From: Mobula hypostoma
Taxonomy: Eukaryota
Assembly: GCF_963921235.1 (NCBI RefSeq)
Contig: NC_086108.1
Coordinates: forward strand, 40,054,001-40,118,000
DNA: 64,000 nt
Reading direction: 5' to 3'
Of this stretch, positions 4,430 to 55,669 are shown piece after piece. Every line of letters starts with the position of its first letter. Within the stretch, counting starts at the first letter, position 1. Below the pieces are notes generated by a model. It saw nothing but the letters and a program-made list of their open reading frames with translations, was not told where the DNA came from and ran no database searches. Made by a program: the position numbers and the translations under genes.

Positions 4430-6830
4430 TCCCTACATTGCAGAGTGACGACCTAATGGCAGCAGTGATGACGATGACCTGCTGCGTGAGCTCCTACATG
4501 TACTTGCAGGTGGCGTGCAAATATGCACATCGTACTACTGTTCCAGATTGCTGGATATGAATGACAACTCCATCTCATGCAGCGGAAGAGGTACCAATAA
4601 AACAATCACCTCCGTTGAAAAGGAAAACATGATTTGGAGGAACCTGCCTAGCTTCAGCTTTGGTATTCTGTTTCTAGGGAAGTGGGGAGGACTAGTCCAT
4701 TCCAATTAGACTCACCTCATAGTATGGCAACAGCCCTAAAGAACTTGAACCTTTGTAGCTCCCAGTGGAGTAAGTGATTTAAAGGCTGATATTTCCCAGC
4801 TTGTGATCTATCCAGTCCAAAGTTTCCAACTCTAAGAGTGATTCCCCAGCCAACAAGGAAGGGAAAGGAAGGTTGGTGTTGGCGCTATGATGAGCACAGG
4901 TCCAACCAGTCAGCAGGGTATGATGGGTATGAGCAAGAATGGTATCCTGGGACAACTGTGTCTATGCTGAATGGTGCTGTGAAGTTAGGCACTCCCTGGA
5001 CACTGGATGATACCTATTGTATATGCGGCTCCTAGGCTTACAGGTCTTATGGCTACCATTATCCAAGAAGTGAAGTGCTGAACGTGCATTGTTTTAGAGG
5101 CCTGGGCGAGCACCCTGTCCATGATGGTCGGCGTGGTAAGAGGCATATCACAGAGGTGGAAGGAGTTTGGATGCTAGTCTTTCCCCTCTGTGGTACGGCC
5201 AGGCTGTCCCAGGAAGCGATACATGGAAATGCTGGTCAATGAGATGACAATGGGGTTCAAGCAGGTGGAGGATGCGCTAACCCGGGTGTTGGCTGACATG
5301 GTAGCTTTTCAGGTGATCATGTTGCAGAATCGAAGGGGCTTAGATTATCTGCCTGCAGAAGGGACTGCCAGCTGTGTTGTTATTGGCTGAGAATGTTGCA
5401 CCTATATTGCTGACAAGTCAGGAAGCATTGCAAAAATGCCATCTCCTTCTCTCAATTCCTCCGTCTCCACTGCAACTGGTCTCAGGATGAGGCTTTCCAT
5501 TCCAGAACTAAGGAGGTGTCCTCTTTCTTCAAAGAAAAAGACTTTCCTTCCTGCACCATTAACGCTGCCCTCACCCGTATCTTTTCCATTTTGCGCCCGT
5601 CTGCCCTCACCCCATCCACCCACCACCCCACAAAGGATAGGGTTCTTCTTGTTCTCACCTACCAGCCTCCGCATCCAGCAAATAATTCTCCGTAACTTCT
5701 GCCACCTCCAACAGGATCCCACCACTAAGCACATCTTCCCCCTCTCCCCTCCCCGCAAATTTCACTCCTTAGGTGTCTCCCATTGTCCATTCGTCCCTCT
5801 CCACTGATCTCTCTCCTGGCACTTATCCTTGCAAGTAACAAATGCTGCACCTGCCCCTACATCTCCTGCCTCACTATCATTCAGGGCCCCAAACAGTCAG
5901 TCCAGGTGAGGCGACGCTTCACCTGTGAGTCTGTTGGGGTCATCCAGTGCTCCTGGCATGGTCTCCTGTATATTGGTGAGACCCGACGTAGATTGGAAAA
6001 CTGCTTTGTCGAACACGTACGCTCCATCTGCTAGAGAAAGCCGGATCTCCCGGTGACTACCTATTTCATTTCTGCTTCCCATTCTCATACCAACATGTCA
6101 GTCCATAGCCTCCTCTATTGCCGCGATGAGGCCACACTTAGTTTGGAGAGGCAACACCTTACCTTGCGTCTGGATAACCTCCAAACTGATGACATAAACA
6201 TCAATTTCTTGAACTTCTGGGAATTGTCCCCTCCTTCACCATTCCCCATTACTATTTCCCTCTCTCACCTTATCTCCTTACCTGCCTATCATCTCTCACT
6301 GGTGCTCCTCCCCTTTCGCTTTCTTCCATGGCCTTCAGTTGTCTCCTATCAGATTCCACCTTCGCCAGCCCTGTATCCCGTTCACCAAACGACTTCCCAG
6401 CTCTTTACTTCACCCCTCCCCCTCACCTATCACCTACTACCATGTACTTCCTGCTCCCTCCTCCACCTTCTTACTCTGACTTCTTATCTTTTTCCAGTCC
6501 TGATGAAGGGTCTTGGCCCAAAATGTCCTTTCCATAGGTGCTGCCTGGCCTGCTCAATTCCTCCAGAATTTTGTGTGTGTTACTTTGATTTCCAGATTCT
6601 ACAGATTATCTCTTGTTCGGGGAACATTTCTCACCAAGCTGACCATATCAATGGTTGGTGAATAAGATTAGGAAAATTGTGGACCAGTTCTGCTGCTTCT
6701 ATACCCTAGGGGGAAGCTGGTGGCCGTTTAGGGCACTGGGTGTTTGGTGGACTACTGTGATACACTGGATAGTGACTGTCAGCCTAATAGTGCTGGGTAT
6801 CGTTTGTATTTTTACGTCTTGTATGTAACA
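4430..6830 (+). pseudogene. env: Gamma-type env, split by a Penelope-like insertion at 5430-6616
   Basis: SU end TYCICGS*AY. Furin site RRGKR at 5129-5143. Immunosuppressive domain LQNRRGLDYL and CX6CC (CVVIG*ECC, 5373-5399). After the insertion come GNISHQADHI and the hydrophobic anchor WWTTVIHWIVTVSLIVLGIVCIF. The start is approximate. Confidence 0.88.
5430..6616 (+). mobile_element. Penelope-like element, 5'-truncated (GIY-YIG endonuclease, pyrimidine-rich 3' region, decayed hammerhead)
   Basis: FTCESVGVIQC..LLYIGETRRRLENCFVEH GIY-YIG motif. cagtcctgatgaagggtcttggcccaaaatgtc at 6495. Imperfect TSD tcaggaagcatt/tcggggaacatt. Confidence 0.85.
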
Positions 6831-21439: not shown

Positions 21440-22103
21440 TGATATTCGCTCCCCAGACAGTCCTTCCATGTGAGGCAACACTTCAACTGCAAAACGGTTG
21501 GGGTTGTCTGTTGCATACGGTGCTCCACCTGTGGCCTCCTCTACATTGGTGAGATCTGTCGTAAACTGGGGGACTGCTCCATCCGCCAAAGGCAGAATTT
21601 CCCGGTGGCCAACCATTTTAATTCCCATTCCCATTCCGACATGTCGATCCATGGCCTTGTCTTCTGTCATGATGAGGCCCCTCTCAGGGTGGAGGAGCAA
21701 CACCTCATATTCTGACTGGGAAGCCTTGAAACTAGTGGCATAAATATCGATTTCTCCTTCCGGTAAAAAAAAATTCCTTCCCTTTCCCTCTTCTTCTCTT
21801 CCCCACTCTGGCCTCTTACCTCTTCTCACCTGCCTGTCTCCTGCCCCAGTGACCCTCCTTCTTCCCTTTCTCCCATGCTCCACTCTCCTCTCCTATCAGA
21901 TTCCTTCCTCTACAGCCCTTTACTTTCCCACCAACCAGCCTTCACCCATCACCTTCTCGCCATCCTCCTTCCCCTTCCCCATCTTTTCATTCTGGCATCT
22001 CCCCACTTCCTTTCTGGTTCTGAGAAAGGGTCTTGGCCCGAAGCGTTGACTTCATTTCCATAGATGCTGCCTGTCCTGCTGAGCTCCTCCAACCATTTGT
22101 GTG
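21440..22103 (+). mobile_element. Penelope-like element 3' fragment with GIY-YIG endonuclease
   Basis: FNCKTVGVVCCIRCSTCGLLYIGE...PVANHFNSHSH...RVEEQHLIF, with a decayed hammerhead at about 22016-22052. Confidence 0.85.
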
Positions 22104-22105
22104 TA

Positions 22106-22770
22106 CAATCGGCCCTCCATATCCGCGGATTCAACCAACTGCAGATGGAAAATATTCGGAAAAAAAGTTCCAGGAAGTTCCAAAAAACAAAACCTGAATT
22201 TGCCGTGTGCCGAGCACTACGTTGAATCCACACGAATGAAGTGATGTGTAGCCTCACCCTGCTGTAGCCTCCCACCATTTCGCAGATCCTCAGTCTCTCT
22301 CTAGCACTCGTTGTTTGAGCACTGTTTGCCTCGCGTCTTGTTCGTTCGCTACTTGTGTTGTGAGCGAGAGGAAGGAGTTTAAGGCTAGTAAGGGATGGCT
22401 GGCTAGCTATGTAAAGCGCTACAGCCTCAAAAACTTAAAGATCACAGGAGAATCGCCATCGGCTAATGTCGAGGCAGCATCAGCGTTCCCAGAAGAGCTA
22501 CGATGGTTGCGTCTGTACTGAACGTGTACACTTTTTTTCTTGTCATTACTCCCTAAACAATACAATATAACAACTATTTACATAGCATTTACATTGTATT
22601 AGTATTAGGTATTATAAGTAATCTAGAGATGATTTAAAGTATACGGGAGGATGTGCATAGGTTATATACAAATACTACGCCATTTTATATAAGGGACTTG
22701 AGCATCCGTGGATTTTGGTAATCGCAGGGGGTCCTGGAACCAATCCCCCGTGGATACTGAGGGATGACTG
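22106..22770 (+). mobile_element. Tigger (pogo) non-autonomous DNA transposon, MER2/MER2B-like, with transposase fragment
   Basis: TA flanks, TIRs caatcggccctccatatccgcgg / ccgtggatactgagggatgactg, and internal KEFKASKGWLASYVKRYSLKNLKITGESPSANVEAASAFPEEL (end of the CENP-B-type HTH plus linker). Confidence 0.9.
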
Positions 22771-23369
22771 TATATCGAAACTTGTTGGTGTTTCAGCCCA
22801 GTGAGGTGCCTGTAAAGAAATGCTGGATCATGTATTGAGGGATGCACTGAAGCTTGTTGCAGCCAATGCTAAATCTCTGTGTGGTAGGACCACAGTCTCG
22901 GCTCCTTTCTCCACCGCACATGGAAGGACAGATGTGGGTGAGGAAGCAATGAAAGGGGTATCGCCTCAGGGAGCCACATGAATGGTAAAGGTGCTATGTT
23001 TCTTCAACAAAATAAGGTAACACGACAGCATGAAATGATCATAAATGTGAAAGGTTTGCGTTGTTACTTTTGTATATTTTTATTACGAATAGAGTCTATT
23101 TTTGAAATAAAAAAGTCAGGCTGACACAGTGCAGGCTGCAAGAGTATGTGTTCAGGGACGCACTGAGCTCGGTGCAGCCAATGCAAAGGCCCCATGGGGA
23201 AGGCCCCTTCCACGCCACACACGGAGAGGCTTAAACAGGTGGGCAAGCCTCTCTAACAATGAAAAGGTGTAGCACCCCAGGGGTCCACAGAATGCCAATG
23301 CTGTCTTGGTTTTAAAAATAAGTTAACACTACTGATTGTAATGGCTATGAATGTAAAAGTTTTTGCCCA

Positions 23370-24740: not shown

Positions 24741-26890
24741 TTGTATGTGTAAGTATTTTTATTATTAATAAAGTTTGTTTTTGAAATATATATACAGGTT
24801 GAGTACTCCCATCTGAAATTCCAAATTCTGAAAACCCCCATAATCCAAAATTTTTTGAGTGCTGACATGATGTTCCAAATGGAAAATTCCATAAGGCGCT
24901 GGGAAGCTTTCCAGGCAATGTGCAGGTCTATGTCCACCACGAACAGTTCTGATAAGTGACCTCACACATGTAATGACCAGAAATTAATGAAAATGTAAAA
25001 AAAAAAGCTGTATAGACCAAAAAAATGAAGATCTTGATCATGTACTGAAAGAGTAGATTTGTCAGAGTCGAAGTGAATATATTCTACTTAATGGTACGCT
25101 GATCATGAAACAAGCTAAGATATATCACGACATCACGACAATCCGAAAATTGAAGGTTATTGTGAATATTCAGCAGGGTGATTGCGGAAATTTATGAAAT
25201 GGCAGAGCATTAAAATTTTAAAGCATCTGCTGATCACGAAGCAGCAGAGAAATTCTTTGATGAGCTTGCCAAGATCGTTGCTGATGAAAATCTAACACCA
25301 GAATAAGTCTACAATGCTGGTTATTTTTATACCTTACATAAAGCCTAAAAAAAGTAAAATACAAATACAGTGTACTGTAACCTTTTATCGAGAAAAGGCA
25401 TCATAGGTGGCGACTGAGAGCCTGCCGTTGTTTGTTGTTGTTAAGAAACATAGAAAAACTACAGCACAATACAGGCACTTCGGCCCACAATGCTGTGCCG
25501 AACATGTCCTTACTTTAAAAATTACCTAGGGTTACCCATAGCCCTCTATTTTTCTAAGCTCCATGTCCCTATGCAGGAGTCTCTTAAAAGACCCTATCGT
25601 ATCCAATTCCACCACCATCGCCGACAGCCATTTCCATGCACTCATCACTCTCTGCATAAAAAAACTGGCATCTCCTCTGTAACTACTTCCAAGCAGCTTA
25701 AAACTGTGCCCTCTCATGTTAGCCATTTCAGCCCTGAGAAAAAGTCTCTGACTATCTACACGACCAATGCCTCTCATCATCTTTACACCTCTATTAGGTC
25801 ACCTCTCATCCTTCATTGCTCCAAGGAGAAAAGACCAAGTTCACTCAACCTATTCTCATAAGACATGCTCCCCAATCCAGGCAACGTCCTTATAAATCTC
25901 CTCTGCACCCTTTCTATGGTTTCCACATCGTTCCTGTAGTGAGGCGACCAGAACTAAGCACAGTACTCCAAGTGTGGTCTGATTAGGGTCCTATATAGCT
26001 GTAACATTACCTCTCGACTCCTAAGCTCAATCCCATGAGTGATGAAGGCCAATGCACCATATGCTTTCTTAACCACAGAGTCAACCAGCACAGCAGCTTT
26101 GAGTGTCCAATGGACTCGGGTCCCAAGATCCCTCTGATCCTCCACACTGCCAAGAGTCTTACCATTAATACTATATTCTGTCATCACATTTGACCTACCA
26201 AAGTGAACCACCCCACACTTATCTGGGTTGAACGCCATCTGCCACTTCCCAGCCCAGTTTTGCATCCTATCAATGTCCCTCTGTAACCTCTGGCAGCCCT
26301 TCACGCTATCCACAACACCCCCAACCTTTGTGTCATCAGCAAATTTACTAACCCATCCCTCCACTTCCTCATCCAGGTCATTTATAAAAATTATGAAGAG
26401 AAAGGGTTCCAGAACAAATCCCTGAGGCACACCACTGGTCACCGATCTCCATGCAGAATATGACTCATCTATAACCAGTCTTTGTCTTCTGTGGGCAAGC
26501 CAATTCTGGATCCATAAAGCAAGGTCCCCTTGGATTCCATGCCTCTTGACTTTTTCAATAGCCTTTCATGGGGTACCTTATCTAATGCCTTGCTGAAATC
26601 CATATACACTACCTTTATCAACGTGTTTTGTTACATCCTGAAAAAATTCAATCAGGCTCGTAAGGCACAACCTGCCTTTGACAAAACCATGCTGACTGTC
26701 CCTAATCATATTATGCCTCTCCAAATGTTCATAAATCCTGCCTCTCAGGGTCTTTTCCATCAACTTGCCAACCACTGAAGTAAGACTCACTGGTCTATAA
26801 TTTCCTGAGCTATCTCTGCTCCCTTTCACGAATAAGGGAACAACATCTAAAACCCTCCAATCCTCGGGAACCTCTCCTGTCCCCATTGAT

Positions 26891-28074
26891 TGACATAGAA
26901 ACATAGAAAATAGGTTCAGGAGTAGGCTATTCGGCCCTTCGAGCCTGCACCGCTATTCAGTACGATCATGGCTGATCATCCAACTCGGACCCTGTACCTG
27001 CCTTCTCTTCATACCCCCTGATCCCTTTAGCCACAAGGGCCATATCTAACTCCCTCTTAAATATAGCCAATGAACTGGCCTCAACTGTTTCCTGTGGCAG
27101 AGAATTCCACAGATTCACCACTCCCTGTGTGAAGAAGTTTTTCCTCATCTCGGTCCTAAAAGGCTTCCCCTTTATCCTCAAATTGTGACCACTCGTTCTG
27201 GACTTCCCAATATCGGGAAGAATCTTTCTGCATCTAGCCTGTCCAATCCCTTTGGAATTTTATACGTTTCAATCAGATCCCGCCTCAATCTTCTAAATTC
27301 CAGAGAGTATAAGCCTAGTCGATCCAGTCTTTCATCATATGAAAGTCCTGCCATCCCAGGAATCAATCTGGTGAACCTTCTTTGTACTCCCTCTATGGCA
27401 AGAATGTCTTTCTTCAGATTAGGGGACCAAAACTGGACACAATACTCCAGGTGTGGTCTCACCAAGGCCTTGTACAACTGCAGTAGTACCTCCCTGCTCC
27501 TGTACTCAAATCCTCTTGCTATGAATGCCAGCATACCATTCGCCTTTTTCACCGCCTGCTGTGCCTGCATGCCCACTTTCAATGACTGGTGTATAATGAC
27601 ACCCAGGTCTCGTTGCACCTCCCCTTTTCCTAATCGGCCACCATTCAGATAATAACCTGTTTTCCTGTTTTTGCCACCAAAGTGGATAACTTCACATTTA
27701 TCCACATTAAATTGCATCTGCCATGAATTTGCCCACTCACCTAACCTATCCAAGTCACCCTGCATCCTCTTAGCATCCTCCTCACAGTTAACACTGCTGC
27801 CCAGCTTCGTGTCATCCGCAAACTTGGAGATGCTGCATTTAATTCCCTTGTCTAAGTCATTAATGTATATTGTAAACAACTGGGGTCCCAGCACTAAGCC
27901 TTGCGGTACCCCACTAGTCACTGCCTGCCATTCTGAAAAGGTCCCCGTTTATTCCCACTCTTTGCTTCCTGTCTGCCAACCAATTCTCTATCCACATCAA
28001 TACCATACCCACAATACCGTGTGCTTTAAGTTTGCACACTAATCTCCTGTGTGGGACCTTGTCAAAAGCCTTTG
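26891..28074 (-). mobile_element. Younger 5'-truncated CR1 LINE B nested in CR1 A
   Basis: 247-aa open RT segment with a distinct 3' UTR and CATAGAAA-repeat tail (as read on +). cattg is duplicated at both junctions. Confidence 0.9.
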
Positions 28075-29621
28075 CATTGTGATGCAAAGATCATTGCCAG
28101 AGGCTCGAAAATCTCCTCCTCGCCTCCCACAGTAGCCCGGCGTATATCCTGTCCGGTCCCAGAGACTTATCCAACTTAATGATATCCAAAAGCTCCAGCA
28201 CATCCACTTTCTTAATGTCTATACGCTCTATCTTTTCAATCCACAGTAAGTCATCCCTACAATCACCAAGATCCTTTTCCATAGTGAATACAGAAGCAAA
28301 GTATTCATAAAGTACCTCTGCTATCTCCTCTGATTCCATACACACTTTTCCACTGTCACACTTGATTGGTTCTATTCTCCCACATCTTATCCCCTTGCTG
28401 TTCACATACTTGTAGAATGCCTTGGGGGTTTCTTTAATCCTGCTCATCAAGGCCTTCTCATGGCCCCTTCTGGCTCTCCTAATTTCATTCTTAAGCTCCT
28501 TCCTGCTCGCCTTATAATCTTCTAGATCTCTATTATTACCTAGCTTTTTGAAGCTTTCGTAAGCTTTTCTTTTCTTCTTGACTAGTTTTTTAACAGTCTT
28601 TGTACACCACGGTTCCTGTACCCTTCCATCCTTCCCCTGTCTCGTTGGAACATACCTATGCAGAATGCCATGCAAATATTCCCTGAACATTTGCCACATT
28701 TCTGCCGTACATTTCCATGAGAATATCTGTTCCCAATTTATGCTTCCTAGTTCCTACCTGAAAGCTTCATATTCCCTCTTACTCCAATTAAACATTTTCC
28801 TAACTTGTCTGTTCCTATCCCTCTTCAATGCTAAGGAGATAGAATTGTGATCACTGTCTCCAAAACGTTCTCCCACTGAGAGATCTGACAACTGACCAGG
28901 TTCACTTCCCAATACCAGATCAAGTACAGCCTCTCCTCTTGTAGGCTTATTTACATATTGTGTCAGGAAACCTTCCTGAACACATCTAACAAACTCCACC
29001 CCATCTAAACCCCTTGCTCTCAGGAGATGCCAATCAATATTTGGGAAATTAGTATTTCCCACCACGACAACTCTGTTATTATTACACCTCTCCAGAATCT
29101 GTCTCCCTATCTGCTCCTCGATGTCCCCGTTACTATTAGGTGGTCTATAAAAAACACCCGGTAGATCTATTGACCCTTCCTGTTTCTAACTTCCACCCAC
29201 AGAGACTCAGTAGACAATCCCTCCATGACTTCTTCCTTTTCTGCAGCCATGACACTATCTCTGATCAACAGCACCCCCACCTCTTTTGCCTCCCTCCCTG
29301 TCCTTTCAGAAACATCTGAAGCCTGGCACTCTAAGTAACCATTTCTACCCCTGAGCCATCCAGGTCTCTGTAATGGCCATATCATAATAGCTCCAAGTAC
29401 TGATCCACCCTCTAAGCTCATCCACTTTGTTCATGATGCTTCTTGCAGTAAAATAGACACATCTCAATCCATCGGTCTGAGCGTATCCCTTCTCTATCAC
29501 CTGCCTATCCTCCCTCTCGCACTGTCTCCAAGCTTTCTCTATTTGTGAGCCAACTGCCCCTTCCTCCGTCTCTTCAGTTCGGTTCCCACCCCCCAGGAAT
29601 TCTAGTTTGAACTCTCCCCAA

Positions 29622-35629: not shown

Positions 35630-38135
35630 TTGCACCAAAAACACATTGATGAAGGTAGAACAGTGGATGTAGTGTATATGGATTTCAGCAAGGCATTTGA
35701 TAAGGTTCCCCATGCCAGGCTCATTCAGAAAGTAAGGAGGCTTGGGATCCAAGGAGACCTTGTTCTGTGGATCCAGAATTGGCTTGCCCACAGAAGGCAA
35801 AGGGTGGTTGTAGATGGTTCGTGTTCAGCATGGAGGACAGTGACCAGTGGTGTTCTGCAAGGATCTGTTCTGGGACCCTTCCACTTTATGATTTTTATAA
35901 ATGACCTGGATGAGGAAGTAGAAGGGTGAGTTACTAAGTTTAGTAGTAGTCATACTTTATTGATCCTGGGGGAAATTGGTTTTCATTACAGTTGCACCAT
36001 AAATAATAAATAGTCATATAACCATAAATAGTTAAATAGTAATATGTAAATTATGCCAGTAAATTATGAAATAAGTCCAGGACCAGCCTATCGGCTCAGG
36101 GTGTCTGACCCTCCAAGGGAGGAGTTGTAAAGTTTGATGGCCACAGGCAGGAATGACTTCCTATGACGCTCTGTGTTGCATCTCGGTGGAATGAGTCTCT
36201 GGCTGAATGTATTCCTGTGCCCACCCGGTACATTATGTAGCGGATGGGAGACATTGACCAAGATGGCATGCAACTTAGACAGCGTCCTCTTTTCAGACAC
36301 CACCGTGGGAGAGTCCAGTTCCATCCCCACAACATCACTGGCCTTACGAATGAGTTTGTTGATTCTGTTGGTGTCTGCTACCCTCAGCCTGCTGCCCCAG
36401 CACACAACAGCAAACATAATAGCACTGGCCACCACAGACTCATAGAACATCCTCAGCATCATCTGGCAGATGTTAAAGGACCTCAGTCTCCTCAGGAAAT
36501 AGAGACGGCTTCGACCCTTCACACTGACACTGGTTAGTGTTCTTAGACCAGTCCAGTTTATTGTCAATTCGTATCCCCAGGTATTTGTAATCCTCCACCA
36601 TGTCCACACTGACCCCCTGGATGGAAACAAGGGTCACCGGTACCTTAGCTCTCCTCAGGTCTACCACCAGCTCCTTAGTCTTTTTCACATTAAGCTGCAG
36701 ATAATTCTGCTCACACCATGTGACAAAGTTTCCTACCGTAGCCCTGTACTCAGCCTCATCTCCCTTGCTGATGCATCCAACTATGACAGAGTCATCCGAA
36801 AACTTCTGAAGATGACAAGACTCTGTGCAGTAGTTGAAGTCTGAGGTGTAAATGGTGAAGAGAAAGGGAGACAAGACAGTCCCCTGTGGAGCCCCAGTGC
36901 TGCTGATTACTCTGTCGGACACACAGTGTTGCAAGCACACGTACTGTGGTCTGCCAGTCAGGTAATCAAGAATCCATGATACCAGGGAATCATCCACCTG
37001 CATCGCTGTCAGCTTCTCCCCCAGCAGAGCAGGGCGGATGGTGTTGAACGCACTGGAGAAGTCAAAAAACATGACCCTCACAGTGCTCACTGGCTTGTCC
37101 AGGTGGGCGTAGATACGGTTCAGCAGGTAGACGATGGCATCCTCAACTCCTAGTCGGGGCTGGTAGACGAACTGGAGGGGATCTAAGTGTGGCCTGACCA
37201 TAGGCTGGAGCAGCTCCAGAACAAGTTTGCTGATGACACAAGAGTTGGGGGTGTTGTAGATAGTCTGGAGGGTTGTCAGAGGTTACAGCGGGACGTCGAT
37301 AGGATGCAGAACTGGGCTGAGAAGTGGCAGATGGAGTTCAACCCAGATAAGTGTGAAGTGGTTCATTTTGGCGGGTCAAATATTAAGAAAGAATATGAGA
37401 TTAATGGTAGGACTCTTGGCAGTGCGGAGCATCATCAAAATCTTGGTGTCTGTGTCCATAGGACTCTCAGGTTGACAGTGTTGTTAACAAGTCGTACGGT
37501 GTGTTGACGTTCATCAACCATGGGACTGAGTTCAAGAGCGGTGAGGTAATATTAAAGCTATATAAGACCTGAGTTAGACCCACTTGGAGTACTGTGTTCA
37601 GTTCTAGTCACCTCATTACAGGAAGAATGTGGATACCATAGAAAGAGTGCAGAAGAGATTTACGAGGGTGTTGCCCGGATAAGGTTGAATGAACTCGTCC
37701 TTTTCTCCTTGGAGTGACAGAGGATGAGAGGTGTCCTGATAGAGGTGTATCAGATGATGAGAAGCATTGATAGTGTGGAAAGTCAGAGGCTTTTTCCCAG
37801 GGCTGAAATGGCTAACACAAGGCAGCATAATTTTACGGTAATTGGAAGTAGGTGCAGGGGGGGATGTCAGGGTAAGTTTTTCACACAGAGTGGTGAGTGT
37901 GTGGAATGCACTGCCCCCCATGGCGTAGAGGCAGATGCAATAGGTTCCACCAGCACTGTGTGTGTTGCAGGTTCTTTTAAGAGACTCGCTGATAGGACCA
38001 TGGAGTTTAGAAAAATAGATGGCTATCCAGTAGGGAAATTCTGGGCAGTTTCTAGAATAGGTTACATGGTTGATACAACATTGTGAGCCAAAGAGCCTTT
38101 AATGTGCTGTAGACTTCTCTGCTCTATGTTCTATG
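35630..38135 (+). mobile_element. CR1 LINE RT to 3' end, split by a Rex1-type insertion
   Basis: [17 protein letters not shown]...[11 protein letters not shown], then KFADDTRVGG resumes at 37223. Tail ctatgttctatg at about 38130. Confidence 0.9.
35942..37222 (-). mobile_element. Young 5'-truncated Rex1/Babar-type LINE
   Basis: LDPLQFVYQP..FFDFSSAFNTI..GAPQGTVLSPFLF..KFSDDS in two overlapping long ORFs. TSD aagttt (35936-35941, 37223-37228) and a (CTA)n tail. Confidence 0.92.
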
Positions 38136-46139: not shown

Positions 46140-49100
46140 TGTAGAACCAGACATTACAGCACAGAAACAGGCCTTTTGGCCCTTCTTGGCTGTGCCGAAC
46201 CATTTTTCTGCCTAGTCCCACTGACCTGCACCTGGACCATATCCCTCCATACACCTCTCATCCATGTACCTGTCCAAGTTTTTCTTAAATGTTAAAAGTG
46301 TGCCCACATTTACCACTTTATCTGGCAGCTCATTCCACACTCCCACCACTCTCTGTGTGAAGAAGCCCCCCCCCATGTTCCCTTTAAACTTTTCCCCCTT
46401 CACCCTTAACCCATGTCCTCTGGTTTTTTTTTCTCCCCTAGCCTCAATGGAAAAAGCCTGCTTGCATTCATTCTATCTAGACCTATCATAATTTTATATA
46501 CCTCTATCGAATCTCCCCTCATTCTTCTACGCTCCAGGGAATAAAGTCCTAACCTATTCAACCGTTCTCTGTAACTCAGTTTCTCAAGTCCCGGCAACAT
46601 CCTTGTAAACCTTCTCTGCACTCTTTCAACCTTATTAATAACCTTCCTGTAATTAGGTGACCAAAACTGCACAGAATACACCAAATTCGGCCTCACCAAT
46701 GTCTTATACAACCTCACCATAACATTCCAACTCCTATACTCAGTACTTTGATTTATAAAGGCCAATGTACCAAAAGATCTCTTTACAACCCTATCTACCT
46801 GGGATGCCACTTTTAGGGAATTTTGTATTTGTATTCCCAGATTCCTCTGTTCTACTGCACTCCCAATGCCCTACCATTTACCTTGTATGTTCTACCTTGG
46901 TTTGTCCTTCCAAAGTGCAATAACTCACACTTGTCTGTATTAAACTCCATCTGCCATTTTTTCAGCCCATTTTTCCAGCTGGTCCAAATCCCTCTGCAGG
47001 CTCTGAAAACCTTCCTCACTGTCCACTACACCTCCAACCTTTGTATCGTCAAAAAATTTGCTGATCCAATTTACCACATTATCATCCAGATTATTGATAT
47101 AGATGACAAGTAACAATGGACCCAGCACTGATCCCTGTGGCACACCACGAGTCACAGGCCTCCACTCAGAGAAGCAATCCTCCACTCCCACTCTCTGGCT
47201 TCTCCCATTGAGCCAATGTCGAATCCAATTTACCACCTCACCATGTATACCTAGCGACTGAATCTTCCTAACCTCCCATACGGGACCTTGTCAAAGGCCT
47301 TACTGAAGTCCATGTAGACAACATCCACTGCCTTCCCTTCATTCACTTTCCTGGTAACCTCCTCAAAAAACTCTAATAGATTGGTTAAACGTGACCTACC
47401 ATGCACAAAGCCATGTTGACTCTCCCTAGCAAGTCCCTGTCTATCCAAATACTTGTAGATCCTATCTCTTAGTACTCCTTCCAATAATTTACCCACTACT
47501 GACGTCAAACTTACTGGCCTATAATTTTCTGGATTACTTTTAGAGCCTTTCTTAAACAACGGAACAACATGAGCTATCCTCCAATCCTCCAGCAGCTCAC
47601 CCGTAGATACCGACATTTTAAATATATCTGCCAGGGCCCCTGCAATTTCAACACTAGTCTCCTTCAAGGTCCGAGGGAATACCCTGTCAGGTCCTGGGGA
47701 TTTATCTACTCTGATTTGCCTCATGATAGCAAGCACCTCCTCCTCTTCAATCTGTATAGGTTCCATGACCTCACTACTTGTTTGCCTTATTTCCATAGGC
47801 TCCATGCCAGTTTCCTTGGTAAATACAGATGCAAAAAAACCATTTAAGATCTCCCCCATTTCTTTTGGTTCCATACATAGTCGACCACTCTGATCTTCAA
47901 GAGGACCAATTTTATCCCTTACTATCTTTTCGCTCTTAATATACCTGTAGAAGCTCTTTGGATTATCCTTCACCTTGACTGCCAAAGTAACCTCATGTCT
48001 TCTTTTATCCCTCCTGATTTCTTTCTTCAGTTTTTTTTTTGCACTTCTTATACTCCTCAAGCACCTTATTTGCTCCCTGTTTCCTATACATGTCGTACAT
48101 CTCTCTCTTCTTCTTTATCAGAGTTCCAATATCCCTTGAGAACCAAGGTTCCTTTTTCTTATTCACTTTGCCTTTAATCCTGACAGGAACATACAAACAC
48201 TGCACTCTCAAAATTTATCCTTTGAAGGCTTCCCACCTACCAATCACATCCTTGCCAGAGAACAACCTGTCCCAATCCACGCTTTTTAGATCCTTTCTCA
48301 TTTCTTCAAATTTGGCCTTTTTCCAGTTTAGAACCTCAGCCTGAGGAACAGATCTATCTTTATCCGTGATCAAGTTGAAACTAATAGTGTTATGATCACT
48401 GGAACCAAAGTGTTCCCCTACACACACTTCCGTCACCTGTACTAACTCGTTTCCTAATAGGAGATCTAATATTGCATCCTCTCTAGTTGGTGCTTCTATA
48501 TATTGATTTAGAAAACTTTCCTGAACACATTTTACAAACTCTAACCTGTCTAGACCTTTAGCAGTATGGGAGTCCCAATCAAGATGTGGAAAATTAAAAT
48601 CCCCTACTATCACAACTTTATGTTTCCTGCAGTTGTCTGCTATCTCTCTGCAGATTTGTTCCTCCAATTCTCGCTGACTATTGGGTGGTCTATAATACAA
48701 ATCCATTAATGTGGTCATACCTTTCCTGTTTCTCAGCTCCACCCATATGGCCTCAGTAGACAAGCCCTCTAATCTGTCCTGCCTGAGCACTGCTGTAACA
48801 TTTTCCCTGACTAGCAATGCCATCCCACCACCCTTCATTTCTCTGCCTCTATCATGTCTGAAACATCGGAACCCTGGAACATTAAGCTGCCAGTCCTGCC
48901 CCTCCTGTAGCCAAGTTTCACTAATGGCTATAATGTCGTAATTCCATGTGTCAATCCATGGCCTCAGTTCATCTGCCTTCCCCACAATACTCCTTGCATT
49001 GAAATAGACACACCTCAGAAGATTATTACCACCACACACAACCCTTCTCTTTGTGACTTTGCATGTACTTTTAACATCATTTATTTTTACCCCTGCTCCA

Positions 49101-50275
49101 CTATCTGCTCTGGCACTCTGGTTCCCATCCCCCTGTAAATCTAATTTAAACCCTCCCCAATAGCACTAACAAACCTCCCTGCGAGGATATTGGTCCCCTT
49201 GTGGTTCAGTTGTAACCCGTCTCTCTTGTACAGGTCCCACCTGCCCCAGAAGAGGTCTCAATGATCCTGAAATCTGGAACCCTGCCCCCATACCAGTCCA
49301 TCAGCCACGTGTTCATCCGCCAGAGCATCCTATTCTTACCCTCACTGGCAGTGGCACAGGTAGCAATCCTGAGATTACCACCCTCGAGGTCCTGCTTTTT
49401 AACTTCCTACCAAGCTCTCTATACTCACTCTCCAGGACCTCCTCACTCTTTCTTCCTACGTCATTGGTACTGATGTGTACCATGACATCTGGCTGATCAC
49501 CCTCCCACTTCAGAATGCTGTGCACGCTATCAGAGACATCCTTGACCCTGGCACCCGGGAGACAACAAACCATCCGGGAGTCTCTGTCACGACCACAGAA
49601 CCTCCTATCTGTACCTTTAACTATCGAGTCCCCTATCACTACCGCAACCAAACTCAGTGTCAGAGATCTGGCTGCTGCAGCTTGTCCCAGGTAATTCATC
49701 ACCCCCCCCCACCCCCAGCAGTATCCAAATCGGTATACTTGTTGTTGAGGGGAATGGCCACAGGGTAACCCTGCTCTGCCTGCCCTTTCCCCTTCCCTCG
49801 CCTGACGGTAACCCAATTACCTGTGGGCTGCTCCTTTGGTGTAACTACCTCCCTGAAGCTACTATCTATAAGCACCTCATTCTCCCGAATGATCCGGAGG
49901 TCATCCAGCTCCTGCGGTTTGTTAGGAGCTGCAGCTGGATGCACTTCTTGCAGGTGTCGTTGTCAGGGACACCGGAGGGCTCCCTGACTTCCCACATCCT
50001 GCAAGAGGAGCATTCCAACATCCTGCCTGGCATTCTCTCTACTCTAAACAAACAAAACAAAACTTATCGAAAACCTACCTTCACCTCTGCCTATTCATGC
50101 TGAAGCCTGTTGAGCCAAGGCCATCCCACTCTGCTCCCTCTCACTCCGCTGCCCGCTCTGAATGCTGCCCACTGTATATGGTGGTCTTTTTTTTTTAAAC
50201 CTTTGGCGCTCCACGTCACGTGCCTGCGCAGTCTAGCCTCTTTTCCCCGAGCAGTGTAAAAAAAAAAGACTTCTC
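46140..50275 (-). mobile_element. Near full-length CR1 LINE (5' UTR, ORF1 zinc finger plus esterase, ORF2 APE-RT, 3' UTR), frameshifted
   Basis: ORF1: CSSCRMWE..TCKKCIQLQLL and VIGDSIVKG..CCLPGARVKDV..HISTND. ORF2: [46 protein letters not shown] and the C-terminal KGEKFKGNMGGGFFTQRVV. Confidence 0.95.
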
Positions 50276-50827: not shown

Positions 50828-50967
50828 ACCGGTGGTATAGTGGTATGCACACCAGACTTCCAGGCAAGTGGTCCCAGGTTCAAGTCCGGCCGGCTCCTTG
50901 TACGTTTTCCATTTGTGCTGGGTTGAGTGTCAAGTGAGCAACTAAACCTCGTGGAAAACAGACAAAT
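50828..50967 (+). mobile_element. tRNA-derived SINE head
   Basis: A box tggtatagtgg and B box ggttcaagtcc, followed by a non-tRNA body and cut by the next CR1. Confidence 0.7.
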
Positions 50968-52336
50968 GTTAACTTCAGTGGTTGGTAAGTTGATGGAAAA
51001 GACCCTGAGAGACAGGATTTATGAACATTTGGAGAGGCATAATATGTTTAGGAATCGTCAGCATGGCTTTGTCAAAGGTAGGTCATGCCTTATGAACCAG
51101 ATTGAATTTTTTGAGGATGTGACTAAACACATTGATGAAAGTAGAGGAGTAGATGTAGTGTATATGGATTTCAGCAAGGCATTTGATAAGGTACCCAATG
51201 AAAGATTTATTGAGAAAATAAGGAGGCGTGGGATCCAAAGGGACCTTGCTTTGTGGATCCAGAATTGGCTTTCCCACAGAAGGCAAAGAGTGGTTGTAGA
51301 CGGGTCATATTCTGCATGTAGGTCAGTGACCAGTGGTGTGCCTCAGGGATCTGTTCTGGGACCTTCTCTTCGTGGTTTTTACAAATGACCTGAATGAGGA
51401 AGTGGAGGGATGGGTTAGTAAATTTGCTGATGACACAAAGGTTGGGGGTGTTGTGGTTCATGTGGAGGGCTATCAGAGGTTACAGCAGGACATCAATAGG
51501 ATGCAAAACTGGGCTGAGAAGTAGCAGATGGAGTTCAACCCAGATAAGTGTGAGGTGATTCATTCTGGTAGGTCAAATATGATGGCAGAATATAGTATTA
51601 ATGGTAAGACTCTTGGCAGTGTGGACGATCAGAGGGATCTTGGGGTCCGAGTCCGTAGGACATTCAAAGCTGCTGCGCAGGTTGAGTCTGTGGTTAAGAA
51701 GACATATGGTGCATTGGCCTTCATCAATCGTGGGATTGAGCTTAAGAGTCAAGAGGTAATGTTACAGCTTTATAGGACTCTGGTCAGACCCCACTTGGAG
51801 TACTGTGCTCAGCTCTGGTCACCTCACTACAGGAAGGATGTGGAAACTATAGAAAGGGTGCACAGGAGATTTACAAGGATGTTGCCTGGATTAGGGAGCA
51901 TGCCTTATGAGAATAGGTGGAGTGAACTCTGACTTTTCTCTTTGGAGTGACGGAGGGGGTTGAGATGTGACCAGATAGAGGTGTACAAGATGATGAGAGG
52001 CATTGATCGTGTGGATAGTCAGAGGCTTTCTCCCAGGGCAGAAATGGGTAACACGAGAGGGCACAGTTTTAAGGTGCTTGGAAGTAGGTGCAGAGGAGAT
52101 GTCAAGGGTAAGTTTTTTTACTCAGAGAGCGGTGAGTGCGTGGAATGGGCTGCCAGTGACGGTGGTGGAGGTGGATACGATAGGGTCTTTAAAGAGACTT
52201 CTGGATAGGTACATGGAGCTTAGAAAAACAGATGGCTATGGGCAACCCTAGGTAATTTCTAAAGTAAGTACATGTTCAGCACAGCATTGTGGGCTGAAGG
52301 ACCTGTATTGTGCTGTAGGTTTTCTATTTTTCTATG
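50968..52336 (+). mobile_element. 5'-truncated CR1 LINE (RT to tail), same subfamily as CR1 A
   Basis: LTSVVGKLMEKTLRDRIYEHLERH...SKFADDTKVGG...RPHLEYCAQLWSP with tail tttctatttttctatg. Confidence 0.93.
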
Positions 52337-53184
52337 AAGTGGTATGGTTGCCGCCCGATGTGCCACAAGGTTCAGAAAGGAACGACAACAACTTCTTTCA
52401 AAGCTGGTGTTCATCCTCATGATGACTGAGTGAATAGATGAGTGAGGTGAATAAACTGTTTGTAACAATATTATTTTACTGATTGGGGAATGTATTGTGG
52501 AGACACACTGTGCAGTGTGAACATATCCATATAGCAGAAAATACCAGCAATAATATTGGCATGGATCAATTATTCCAAATTTGTCTTGTTATTTATGCAA
52601 CACAGCTTCCAACTTTCGTTGTCTTTGAGAGCCACTGAAAGAGCATGTTTTCTTCCGTGAACTCTTCCTGGAATACTTGTTAAGGTTTTTTTATTTCCCA
52701 GAACGTTAGATTGGGGATTGCTGGGCGGTGCAGGTCAAAGCGCTGATAGGGCCTATTCCGCTTTGTATCGCTAAATAATATAAACCTTCTGTGTAATGGG
52801 TACCACAGTCCTACTGATACACATCACGTGGTCTTTATAATGAGGCACTTCTGTGGTGTATTTTTAAGATTTGTTTTAGTTTGTAAAAGGCTTTCAACAA
52901 AAAAAAATCTACATATCTGACAGCCATTAGTCAGGGTTTGAAGCAGAAGATGACTGTGAATTCTGAGTCTTCAACAGCAAAAAATGCTCGACATATATTT
53001 ACGAAGAACATCTAGGGAACTGGAATGAACACAGTGGGTGGCATCTCTATTTCTCCGTGCACTAATTGGACGGCCTCACACTGGAAGCCACCGTGGTATT
53101 TGCTGGTATGGAGGTGAGAAGTAGGAACACCCTGCTTTGCAGCAGTAGTCCTCCCAAACTCTGTGTGAACAGTAGCTGGAACTG

Positions 53185-53185
<1 letters not shown>

Positions 53186-53222
<37 letters not shown>

Positions 53223-54661
53223 TCGTGTTTGTGAGAGAGAGAGAGAGGTGTGCGTGAGAGAGAGAGATCGTGTGTATGAGAGAGAGAGAGGTGTGCGTGA
53301 GAGAGAGAGATCGTGTGTATGAGAGAGAGAGATGGTGTGTGTGTGTGTGAGAGAGGTGTGTGTGTGAGAGAAAATGGTGTGTGAGAGAGCGAGATGCTGT
53401 CTGTGTGTATGTGAGAGAGATCGTGTGTGTGTGAGAGAGATCGTGTGTGTGAGAGAGAGATCATGTGTATGAGAGAGAGAGAGAAAAATGGTGAGTGTGT
53501 GTGTGTGAGAGAGATGGTGTGTGTGAGAGAGAGATGGTGAGAGAGAGAGAGAGAGAGAGATGGTGTGTGTGTGAGAGAGAGATGGTGAGAGAGAGAGATG
53601 CTGTGTGTGTGTGAGAGAGAGAGATCGTGTGTGTGAGAGAGATGTGTGTGAGAGAGATCGTGTGTATGTGTGAGAGAGAGAGAGAGAGATGGTGTGTGTG
53701 TGTGAGAGAGAGAGATGGTGTGTGTGTGTGAGAGAGAGAGAGATGGTGTGTGTGTGAGAGAGATGGTGTGTGTGTGTGTGAGAGAGAGAGGTGTGTGTGT
53801 GTGAGAGAGAGATGCTGTGTCTGTGTGTGTGTGTGTGAGAGAGAGAGAGATGGTGTGTGTGTGTGAGAGAGATGGTGTCTGCATGTGTATGAGAGAGAGA
53901 TGGTGTGTGTGAGAGAGATTGTGTGTGAGAGAGAGATGGTGTGTGCGTGTGTGAGAGAGAGATGGTGTGTGTGTGTGAGAGAGAGAGATGGTGTGTGTGT
54001 GTGAGAGAGAGAGAGATGGTGTGTGTGTGTGTGAGAGAGAGAGGTGTGTGTGTGTGAGAGAGAGATGCTGTGTCTGTGTGTGTGTGTGTGAGGGAGAGAG
54101 ATGGTGTGTGTGTGTGTGAGAGAGATGGTGTCTGCATGTGTATGAGAGAGAGATGGTGTGTGTGAGAGAGAGAGATCGTGTGTGTGAGAGAGATGTGTGT
54201 GAGAGAGATCGTGTGTATGTGTGAGAGAGAGAGAGATGGTGTGTGTGTGTGAGAGAGAGAGATGGTGTGTGTGTGTGAGAGAGAGAGAGATGGTGTGTGT
54301 GTGAGAGAGATGGTGTGTGTGTGTGTGAGAGAGAGAGGTGTGTGTGTGTGAGAGAGGGATGCTGTGTCTGTGTGTGTGTGTGTGAGAGAGAGAGAGATGG
54401 TGTGTGTGTGTGAGAGAGATGGTGTCTGCATGTGTATGAGAGAGAGATGGTGTGTGTGAGAGAGATTGTGTGTGAGAGAGAGATGGTGTGTGCGTGTGAG
54501 AGAGAGAGATGGTGTGTGTGTGAGAGAGAGAGAGATGGTGTGTGTGTGTGAGAGAGAGAGAGATGGTGTGTGTGTGAGAGAGATGGTGTGTGTGTGTGAG
54601 AGAGATGGTGTGTGTGTGTGAGAGAGAGAGGTGTGTGTGTGTGAGAGAGAGATGCTGTGTC

Positions 54662-54692
<31 letters not shown>

Positions 54693-55132
54693 TGGTGTGT
54701 GTGTGTGTGAGAGAGATGGTGTCTGCATGTGTATGAGAGAGAGATGGTGTGTGTGAGAGAGATTGTGTGTGAGAGAGAGATGGCGTGTGCGTGTGTGAGA
54801 GAGAGATGGCGTGTGCGTGTGTGAGAGAGAGATGGTGTGTGAGTGTGTGTGTGTGAGCGAGAGGGTTTGTGTGTTGTGTGTATGTGTGTAAGAGAGAGAA
54901 GAGGTGTGTGTGTGTCTGTGAGAGAGAGAAGAGGTGTGTGTGTGTCTGTGAGAGAGAGAAGAGGTGTGTGTCTGTGAGAGAGATGGTGTGTGTGTGTGAG
55001 AGAGAAAGGCGAGAAAGAGAGAGGTATGTGTGTGAGAGAGAGATGGTGTGTGTGTGTGGGTGTGTGTTTGTGTGTGTGAGAGAGAGAGATGGTGTGTGTG
55101 GGTGTGTGTGTGTGTGTATATGTGTGTGTGTG
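53186..55132. repeat. Compound (GT)n(GA)m satellite with higher-order repeats
   Basis: Units of about 20-30 bp of the form atg(gt)n(ga)m. Rare variant words recur at about 250-295 and about 550 bp spacing. Confidence 0.95.
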
Positions 55133-55669
55133 GGGGGGCAGGTTGGGGGCTCTACATTTACCTCAACTGGGGTATTTTTAAATAGGCAGATGGAGAGTAT
55201 ACGACAAGCAACCCAGACCAATCAGCCCATCTGCTCTGTGCTGCTGTTTTCAACCCTCATACCTCAGCTCATTGCCTTTATGTTACTGTACATGGATGGA
55301 CAGCTTGTCTTTCTCAAGTACCGACTAAGCTCTTTTAGAGCCACGCAAAACCACCACCCAGGCACTGTATGCCATGAAAAGAAACACTTCTGTTTCTTTG
55401 CTTACTGAGGATCACTGCACCTCTGCTTTACAAAAATGTGAACTCACCGGTGCACTGACTAATAGGAGCATAACCTGCTTTCCATTGTAGTCGAGGGAAT
55501 ATAAAGATTGTGAGAAGGAATTGTTCAAAAGACATTAATCAAAATTTAATGTAAGTTGGGCTAACTGTGGCAGAAATGTTGTGATGGCAGAGAGTGAAAG
55601 GAAGGGGAATTTCCCAATATAAATTTTACACTCCACTCCCCTCTCAATAAATGATAACGTTTTACTCAC

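What the first reader, a model, noticed from the sequence alone, without database searches (positions are those of the whole stretch)
22106..22770. MER2/MER2B-like Tigger with transposase sequence: possible horizontal transfer and a lead to the autonomous parent
The non-coding arms match, nearly base for base over more than 200 bp, the human MER2 and MER2B consensus as I recall it. Examples are the minus-strand GGGGATTGGTTCCAGGACCCC...CCAAAATCCACGGATGCTCAAGTCCCTTATATAAAATGGCGTAGTATTTG and the plus-strand ggattcaaccaac...ctacgttgaatccacacgaatgaagtgatgtgtag. Such identity in neutral DNA is not expected from vertical descent between mammals and cartilaginous fish. This copy also holds about 45 codons of Tigger transposase, which the human MER2 MITEs lack, so this genome may preserve the coding parent. 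The match rests on memory and needs confirmation.
Basis: partly seen in the sequence, partly recalled or inferred. Interest (0 to 1): 0.72.

Follow-up and report, generated by a model that had tools for sequence, protein, structure and literature searches.

The report
Ray relative of human MER2 transposon
A dead jumping-gene copy in what appears to be a ray genome shares its non-coding ends with a common human repeat and still carries a piece of the enzyme gene that the human copies lack, pointing to an ancient jump between mammals and rays and to the likely parent of the human repeat.

Summary
The element is real: 665 bp, TA on both sides, 23-bp inverted ends (17/23), 46 codons of Tigger transposase. 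The mammalian likeness was tested without a recalled consensus. The translated right arm hits 235 pseudo-proteins; 2 of 17 looked up name a species (titi monkey; human through a cluster member). Colinear matches span 255 bp of the right arm and 99 bp of the left. Over 108 bases the copy differs from the inferred ancestor of those hits at 8 sites, 5 of them CpG decay: about 93%, not base for base. The label MER2/MER2B remains recalled, because no Dfam or Repbase was available. The fragment is 89% identical to an intact 607-611-aa DD32D transposase from unnamed hosts. That transposase's N-terminus is fused to GTF2I in stingrays and devil rays, and it is only about 63% like the nearest named mammalian Tigger proteins. 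Best reading: a deletion derivative of the parent of the mammalian MITE, shared by horizontal transfer, route unknown. Not shown: the parent's DNA arms, copy number, host identity (earlier notes say devil ray). This scan noted MER2-like relics in arthropod genomes before. Tigger transfer between eutherians and sharks is published for other families.

The parts
22104..22105 (.). left TA target-site dinucleotide, at the 3' end of a host repeat
   Evidence: sequence; 5 of 8 other window matches to the left flank end at 22104
22106..22128 (+). left (5') terminal inverted repeat, 23 bp
   Evidence: 17 of 23 bases match the right end; chance 9 of 200,000
22106..22362 (+). 5' non-coding arm; 22171-22269 is shared with short two-armed copies elsewhere; 22270-22362 has no match and is inferred to be parent 5' leader
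   Evidence: P0270 22/33 (E 1e-14) and P0204 15/25 (E 5e-11), both of unnamed host; no other window match for 22270-22362; the outer part of this arm was not compared with the hits
22363..22500 (+). 46 codons of Tigger transposase (residues 131-176: end of the second helix-turn-helix and linker); no start codon, no catalytic domain
   Evidence: Pfam HTH_Tnp_Tc5 E 0.0011, 19.3 bits, below the 22.2 cut-off
22501..22770 (+). 3' non-coding arm, homologous to a human/primate repeat (recalled as MER2)
   Evidence: 235 hits for 22665-22772; colinear matches inward to 22518 (P0263) and 22555 (human P0313); 8 differences in 108 bases from the inferred ancestor
22748..22770 (-). right (3') terminal inverted repeat, 23 bp
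   Evidence: agreement with the hits falls off immediately outside the TA (98/116 at the TA codon, 14/66 one codon further out)
22771..22772 (.). right TA target-site dinucleotide
   Evidence: sequence
21451..22104 (+). context: older host repeat (GIY-YIG-like reading frame, recalled as Penelope-like) at whose 3' end the element sits
   Evidence: 64% match to window 5887-6578 and shorter matches to 7 other places; family label recalled

Best explanation
A non-autonomous, twice internally deleted copy of a roughly 2.4-kb Tigger (pogo) cut-and-paste transposon. The parent encodes a 607-611-aa DD32D transposase with two helix-turn-helix domains, which binds the 23-bp ends, excises the element and inserts it at TA (mechanism from established knowledge of the family). 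One deletion removed codons 1-130 and another codon 177 onward. The shortened copy kept both ends, so it could be moved in trans; it landed at the TA ending a host repeat and has decayed since. The same parent lineage entered the eutherian ancestor, where shorter deletion products (recalled as MER2/MER2B) multiplied. Sharing between rays and mammals is by horizontal transfer, more likely through a common donor lineage than directly, probably in the Cretaceous. Shown: anatomy, arm homology to primate DNA, fragment-to-transposase identity, presence of the transposase lineage in ray gene models. Inferred: that the intact transposase carries these arms, the transfer itself, its date and route.
For: Anatomy. 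Arm homology extends far beyond the TIR and outside the query: 21 of 172 proteins match 22168-22664, best E 5e-15, against best E 1e-4 in 20 control stretches (7 of the 21 are cluster mates of the human locus). Only 3 non-CpG differences in 108 bases from the inferred ancestor, against a 473-My chondrichthyan-bony vertebrate split in the tree of PMC7070016. Human MER2 copies are a median 18.5% from their own consensus, and MER2 is placed near the eutherian divergences (PMC1914374), so the mammalian family is far younger than that split. The fragment groups with P0002/P0016 and the ray fusions (FastTree 0.84), apart from the elephant, dugong and opossum proteins. Among the 120 listed of 661 relatives, the only named vertebrate protein above 70% identity is a skink's (73%). 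P0002's contig is 2,416 bp and its ORF 1,824 bp, leaving 592 bp, close to the 527 non-coding bases of this copy.
Against: No DNA of the intact element was retrieved, so its arms are unseen. Only 2 of 17 arm hits looked up name a species, so the host of most of the 154 is inferred or unknown. Hits were selected by likeness to the window and the fit starts from the window, so 93% is an upper-leaning figure; the 11-copy subset assigned by name or flank agrees at 30 of 36 codons rather than 33. The two copies that show the left arm have no named host. Patchiness rests on annotated proteins, not genomes. Host identity rests on earlier AI notes and nearest relatives; my own attempt gave nothing. No dS test.
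Confidence: 0.78

Rival explanations
1. Chimera: a MER2-like miniature element that picked up 46 codons from a different Tigger family of rays. The arms would still have moved horizontally, but the intact transposase would not be their parent.
For: Parent DNA unseen. 22270-22362 has no match anywhere tested. Several hits (P0154, P0156, P0166) show this arm embedded inside other terminal sequence, so composites occur in this group; reading that sequence as Tigger2-like is recalled.
Against: A Tigger coding piece between Tigger-type ends is the usual form of a deletion derivative (PMC1914374 section 9). The contig arithmetic fits (592 vs 527 bp). The transposase lineage is present in rays.
Confidence: 0.13
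2. Vertical descent: the family was present in the jawed-vertebrate ancestor, persisted in both lineages and was lost elsewhere.
For: Related Tigger transposases at 45-68% identity occur across vertebrates. Cartilaginous fishes evolve slowly (own knowledge). No genome survey was run.
Against: About 3% non-CpG difference in non-coding DNA across a 473-My split. Mammalian copies are 18.5% from their own consensus after far less time. [quoted passage not shown] The transposase tree mixes rays, skink, whipworm and unnamed hosts.
Confidence: 0.04
3. Mammalian contamination or assembly artefact.
For: The arms are human-like, only one copy lies in the 64-kb window, and read support across the junctions was not obtained.
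Against: The copy joins a window-native repeat at a TA. It has transposase that none of 172 arm-matching sequences has. It keeps a CpG codon that only 6 of 102 hits keep. Four runs of one organism hold 55-64% of its sampled words, possibly the source sample. Ray gene models carry the same transposase.
Confidence: 0.02
4. The host is not a cartilaginous fish, which would change the distance claimed for the transfer.
For: No host gene was found among 30 of 63 long ORFs scanned, and the atlas gave no useful taxa.
Against: The nearest named relatives are ray proteins. 116 of 215 earlier notes on this genome fit the word 'ray', and several name a devil ray (unchecked).
Confidence: 0.03

Closest known systems
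MER2 / MER2B (human non-autonomous Mariner/Tigger repeats; listed in PMC5753468 Table 5; 345 bp and about 336-345 bp, 6,835 and 1,560 human units in PMC1914374 supplements)
   Same: Right arm colinear with a human repeat over 194 bp and with an unnamed copy over 243 bp; left arm shared over 99 bp; TA target; about 93% to the inferred ancestor. That this human repeat is MER2 is recalled.
   Different: 665 bp rather than about 340; carries 46 transposase codons and 93 unmatched bases; different deletion points; found in an apparent ray. It is a sibling derivative, not a MER2 copy.
Mammalian Tigger transposases nearest in the search (P0042 Loxodonta, P0053 Dugong, P0043 Gracilinanus; recalled as Tigger2-type)
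   Same: Same domain layout and catalytic motifs; neighbouring clade.
   Different: 44-53% identity over the fragment, 50-57% over residues 1-188 and 59-63% overall: a different family.
Tigger transfers between Eutheria and Chondrichthyes reported by Diaby et al. 2022 (PMC9219625)
   Same: Same superfamily and the same pair of host groups.
   Different: The four chondrichthyan rows I retrieved have other TIRs. 'Myliobatiformes' has 0 occurrences, and the only table TIR holding the core motif of this right end is a nematode's. MER2 is not mentioned in the main text.
MER6 and Mariner-1-like elements of turtles (Luchetti et al. 2019, PMC6887750; abstract only)
   Same: A human MER miniature element whose parent was traced to a distant vertebrate.
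   Different: Other family and host; MER6 is a composite with a V-SINE.
Host-transposase fusion genes such as GTF2IRD2 (Cosby et al., bioRxiv 10.1101/2020.05.07.082677; passages)
   Same: The ray GTF2I-like gene models begin with this transposase's DNA-binding region, joined at one point.
   Different: That survey started from tetrapod annotations. The ray fusion is N-terminal and Tigger-derived. It concerns relatives of the element, not the window copy.

Membership tests
Tigger (pogo superfamily) | TA target-site duplication | tested here: met
   TA on both sides; defining per PMC9219625 section 3.1; the empty site was not seen
Tigger (pogo superfamily) | short TIRs of about 20 bp (8-33) | tested here: met
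   23 bp, 17 matches
Tigger (pogo superfamily) | CENP-B_N plus HTH_Tnp_Tc5 DNA-binding motifs | tested here: met
   met in the relative P0002; the window fragment alone scores below the Pfam cut-off but is 89% identical to that region
Tigger (pogo superfamily) | DD29-36D catalytic triad (PMC7386202) | tested here: met
   P0016 has D194, D308, D341 = DD32D; the domain is deleted from the window copy
autonomous Tigger element | single intact transposase ORF between the TIRs | tested here: not met
   only residues 131-176 are present
MER2 / MER2B | high identity to the Dfam/Repbase consensus | not testable with these tools
   no such library here; a motif search of paper texts found nothing
MER2 / MER2B | arms homologous to a multi-copy human repeat beyond the TIRs | tested here: met
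MER2 / MER2B | about 340 bp, no coding sequence | tested here: not met
   665 bp with 46 codons; lengths from the PMC1914374 supplement
mammalian Tigger2-type (label recalled) | transposase identity at family level | tested here: not met
   59-63% overall, separate clade
horizontal transfer (criteria of PMC7070016 / PMC9219625) | TE distance below host-gene distance | tested here: inconclusive
   about 7% total and 3% non-CpG over 108 bases; no host dS computed
horizontal transfer (criteria of PMC7070016 / PMC9219625) | patchy distribution and discordant tree | tested here: inconclusive
   discordant protein tree of 38 chosen rows; patchy among annotated proteins; no genome survey

The most novel reading that the evidence does not exclude
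P0002/P0016 is the undescribed autonomous parent of human MER2 and MER2B and still has an intact open frame in a living animal. One Cretaceous wave carried it into the ancestors of myliobatiform rays, skinks and placental mammals. It was then co-opted at least twice: as a DNA-binding exon of ray GTF2I and as a catalytically dead gene in skinks. The natural protein would allow a direct test of whether it binds and moves MER2 ends, and of which of the thousands of human MER2 sites a transposase-derived factor could recognise.
Probability: 0.5. Interest if true: 0.72.

Novelty: new member of a known kind. Interest (0 to 1): 0.55.

Why it matters
Transfers involving mammals are rare: fewer than 3% of 975 vertebrate events involve mammals or birds in PMC7070016. 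That survey's species table has Callorhinchus and Rhincodon but not Leucoraja. The passages I read name parents for MER44, MER30, MER1 and MER46 but none for MER2. This copy physically links the arms of a repeat with thousands of human copies to a specific transposase, and that transposase exists intact. That would supply a parent, a date check from an independent lineage (the ray GTF2I fusion) and a natural protein for binding and transposition assays. The kind of event is well known, so the value lies in the specific link.

Tried and rejected
Own-genome search: no genome held, so there is no copy number or full-length search. Metagenome scan with P0002: 77 loci, none close (29-72% on best segments) and none with DNA similarity to 22168-22770. 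Viral contigs: 22 pattern matches, 0 confirmed. Plasmids: no match. Rfam: 0 matches at E<=1. Read-level support and longer forms in other runs were not obtained; one search lists 22 runs from 8 studies holding part of the stretch, with coded names, and shares under 0.2 are not used. Pfam (14 proteins) and the atlas did not confirm the Alu-type or ruminant-SINE-type flanks, so those labels stay recalled. An atlas search for host taxon was uninformative. The first tree run was killed and replaced by FastTree. The idea that the copy is very young, from CpG o/e 0.86 vs 0.29 (6 of 621 other windows as high), was dropped: 5 of 9 inferred ancestral CpGs have decayed. The frame -1 column table is confounded by frameshifted alignments and was not used. 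Trichuris muris P0014 (84% over 62% of the query) is a short match; full-length whipworm proteins are 65-68%, so there is no case for it as the donor. Pace and Feschotte 2007 was not held; Smit and Riggs 1996 was not sought. Not in print as far as searches reach. Subscription papers, Repbase Reports and Dfam entries were not searchable and may already hold this family, and the bioRxiv supplement of Cosby et al. was not seen.

Full report
Observation. The element occupies window 22106-22770 (665 bp) with TA on each side. Its first and last 23 bases match as inverted repeats at 17 positions, which 9 of 200,000 random TA-anchored pairs reach. It is the only copy in the window. It sits at the 3' end of an older host repeat: 5 of the 8 other window matches to the left flank end at the base where the TA begins. 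On the plus strand 22363-22500 reads as residues 131-176 of a Tigger transposase, so the left arm is the 5' end.

The transposase. The 52-residue frame P0001 found 14 longer relatives among 35 candidates. The best is P0002, 607 aa, on a 2,416-bp JGI contig; its cluster mate P0016 (611 aa, Logan) is about 96% identical to it. Both hosts are unnamed. P0002 has CENP-B_N, HTH_Tnp_Tc5 and DDE_1 domains, and P0016 has a DD32D triad, within the DD29-36D range given for Tigger (PMC7386202, passages). The fragment matches P0016 at 40 of 45 residues, ray proteins at 35-38, skink at 34 of 44, and the nearest mammalian proteins at 20-24. In a FastTree tree of 38 chosen rows the fragment falls with P0002/P0016 and the ray proteins (0.84), then skink-type proteins (0.93) and whipworm (0.95). 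Elephant, dugong and opossum proteins lie in another clade. Among the 120 listed of 661 relatives, the only named vertebrate protein above 70% is the skink's. The contig of P0002 could not be fetched. Its length minus the ORF leaves 592 bp, near the 527 non-coding bases of the window copy; this fits a collapsed full-length element but is only arithmetic.

Testing the mammalian likeness. No Dfam or Repbase library is available, and I did not use a recalled consensus. Gene callers translate open stretches of repeats, so I searched 1.84 billion representatives with a stop-free non-coding frame of the right arm (22665-22772, minus strand). It gave 235 hits at E<=0.001, of which 150 were listed; one search added 4 more. 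I looked up 17 of these 154. Two name a species: a Plecturocebus cupreus hypothetical protein, and a cluster holding human 'alternative protein ZFP14'. None names a non-mammal. A motif scan flagged 6 with Alu-type and 7 with ruminant-SINE-type flanks, of which 4 and 6 look convincing by eye. These labels are recalled and were not confirmed by Pfam or the atlas. The commonest residue among hits equals the window residue at 33 of 36 codons, and agreement falls off just outside the TA.

Matches outside the query give an unbiased check. The human protein continues in another frame over 22674-22555 (27/40, E 2.4e-20; best elsewhere in the window E 0.04). P0263 reaches 22518. P0270 and P0204 run from the right arm directly into the left arm (22269-22171, 22/33; 22251-22177, 15/25), the form of a short two-armed element, though their hosts are unnamed. 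In all, 21 of 172 proteins match outside the query (7 are cluster mates of the human locus), with best E 5e-15 against 1e-4 in 20 control stretches, and none of the 172 resembles the transposase. The outer part of the left arm was not compared.

How close. A likelihood fit of ancestral bases to the residue counts of 143 of 154 hits differs from the window at 8 of 108 bases under both parameter sets; 5 are CpG decay in the window copy and 3 are other changes (an unconstrained fit gave 9-11 supported differences in 138). This leans high, because hits were chosen by likeness, silent sites are partly invisible and the fit starts from the window. The 11-copy subset assigned to mammals by name or flank agrees at 30 of 36 codons, with the same pattern. 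So the match is about 93%, not base for base, and the copy is not recent: 5 of 9 inferred CpGs are lost.

How it works. Shown: Tigger-type ends, TA target, a coding remnant and no catalytic domain. From established knowledge: such deletion products keep their ends and are moved by the parent's transposase (PMC1914374 section 9). Inferred: two deletions from a 2.4-kb parent, mobilisation in trans, then decay. The human repeat is a shorter product of the same parent lineage.

Why transfer. The split is 473 My in the tree of PMC7070016 (supplement). Human MER2 and MER2B copies are a median 18.5% and 19.2% from consensus; MER2B is listed in primates, cow and rodents, and MER2 is placed near the eutherian divergences (PMC1914374 passages and supplements). 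About 3% non-CpG change in non-coding DNA cannot span that split without strong constraint, which decaying multi-copy repeats do not show. The ray GTF2I-like proteins of Hemitrygon, Hypanus and Mobula start with residues 1-188 of this transposase (86-89% to P0016) joined at the same point. That puts the element in rays before stingrays and devil rays diverged, roughly Late Cretaceous by my recall, and so broadly the same age as the mammalian burst. Direction and donor are unknown. Four earlier notes of this scan report MER2-like relics in arthropod or other invertebrate genomes (unchecked), which would fit a third donor.

Against and open. The parent's arms are unseen, so a chimera remains possible (0.13). 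Copy number, empty site, read support, genome-wide distribution and dS were not obtained. The host is taken as a ray from the nearest named relatives and from earlier AI notes; my own checks found only retrotransposon-type domains in 30 of 63 long ORFs and no taxon.

Comparison with print. PMC9219625 (abstract, first part of results, passages, four supplement searches) reports Tigger transfer between Eutheria and two sharks, but lists other TIRs, no Myliobatiformes and no MER2. PMC5753468 (passages, section 9) lists MER2 and MER2B without a parent. PMC10162687 (passages) has no MER2 or Tigger. PMC6887750 (abstract) is the nearest precedent, for MER6. Ten searches found no report of this link, but Dfam, Repbase and subscription papers were out of reach.

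Verdict. A real Tigger deletion derivative. It is not itself MER2 (size and coding content fail), but very probably a sibling from the same parent, shared by horizontal transfer. New member of a known kind, interest 0.55; the specific parent link and the ray fusion give it its value.

Noticed in passing
P0003, P0026, P0030, P0010, P0032 (ray RefSeq proteins; not in the window): GTF2I/GTF2IRD2-like gene models of Hemitrygon, Hypanus and Mobula begin with the DNA-binding region of this transposase, joined at one point; some isoforms use a shorter piece or lack it. Hemitrygon and Hypanus are 187/188 identical in this part against 97.7% in the host part, hinting at constraint. A candidate host-transposase fusion outside tetrapods.
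   Followed up: partly
P0012 (Tiliqua scincoides), P0013, P0011 (unnamed): Full-length relatives at 73% with the first two catalytic aspartates replaced; P0012 and P0013 have a long N-terminal extension. Possible domestication in skinks.
   Followed up: partly
P0015 cluster (10 unnamed ENA/Logan members): Decayed piece of the same transposase (63/92 to P0016), apparently one locus with variants, seen in many data sets. Host unknown; could be a mammalian coding fossil of the parent.
   Followed up: partly
P0154, P0156, P0166, P0153: The same arm sits inside other terminal sequence in several hits, suggesting composite elements (recalled as Tigger2a-like).
   Followed up: no
window 21451-22104: Older repeat with a GIY-YIG-like frame, also at 5887-6578 (64%); its tail recurs at least 6 more times in the window.
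   Followed up: partly
window 22821-22891 and 23137-23206; 23009-23057 and 23315-23363: Diverged direct duplication with about 306-316 bp spacing just right of the element.
   Followed up: no
window 25954-29185, 36088-37282, 46406-49816, 50927-51388: Several broken LINE-type copies with reverse transcriptase and endonuclease domains; one has a GDSL-like frame upstream.
   Followed up: no
window 53012-55221: Low-complexity repeat giving 586-716-codon open frames on the minus strand with no Pfam match in the one scanned; holds the window's highest CpG ratio.
   Followed up: no
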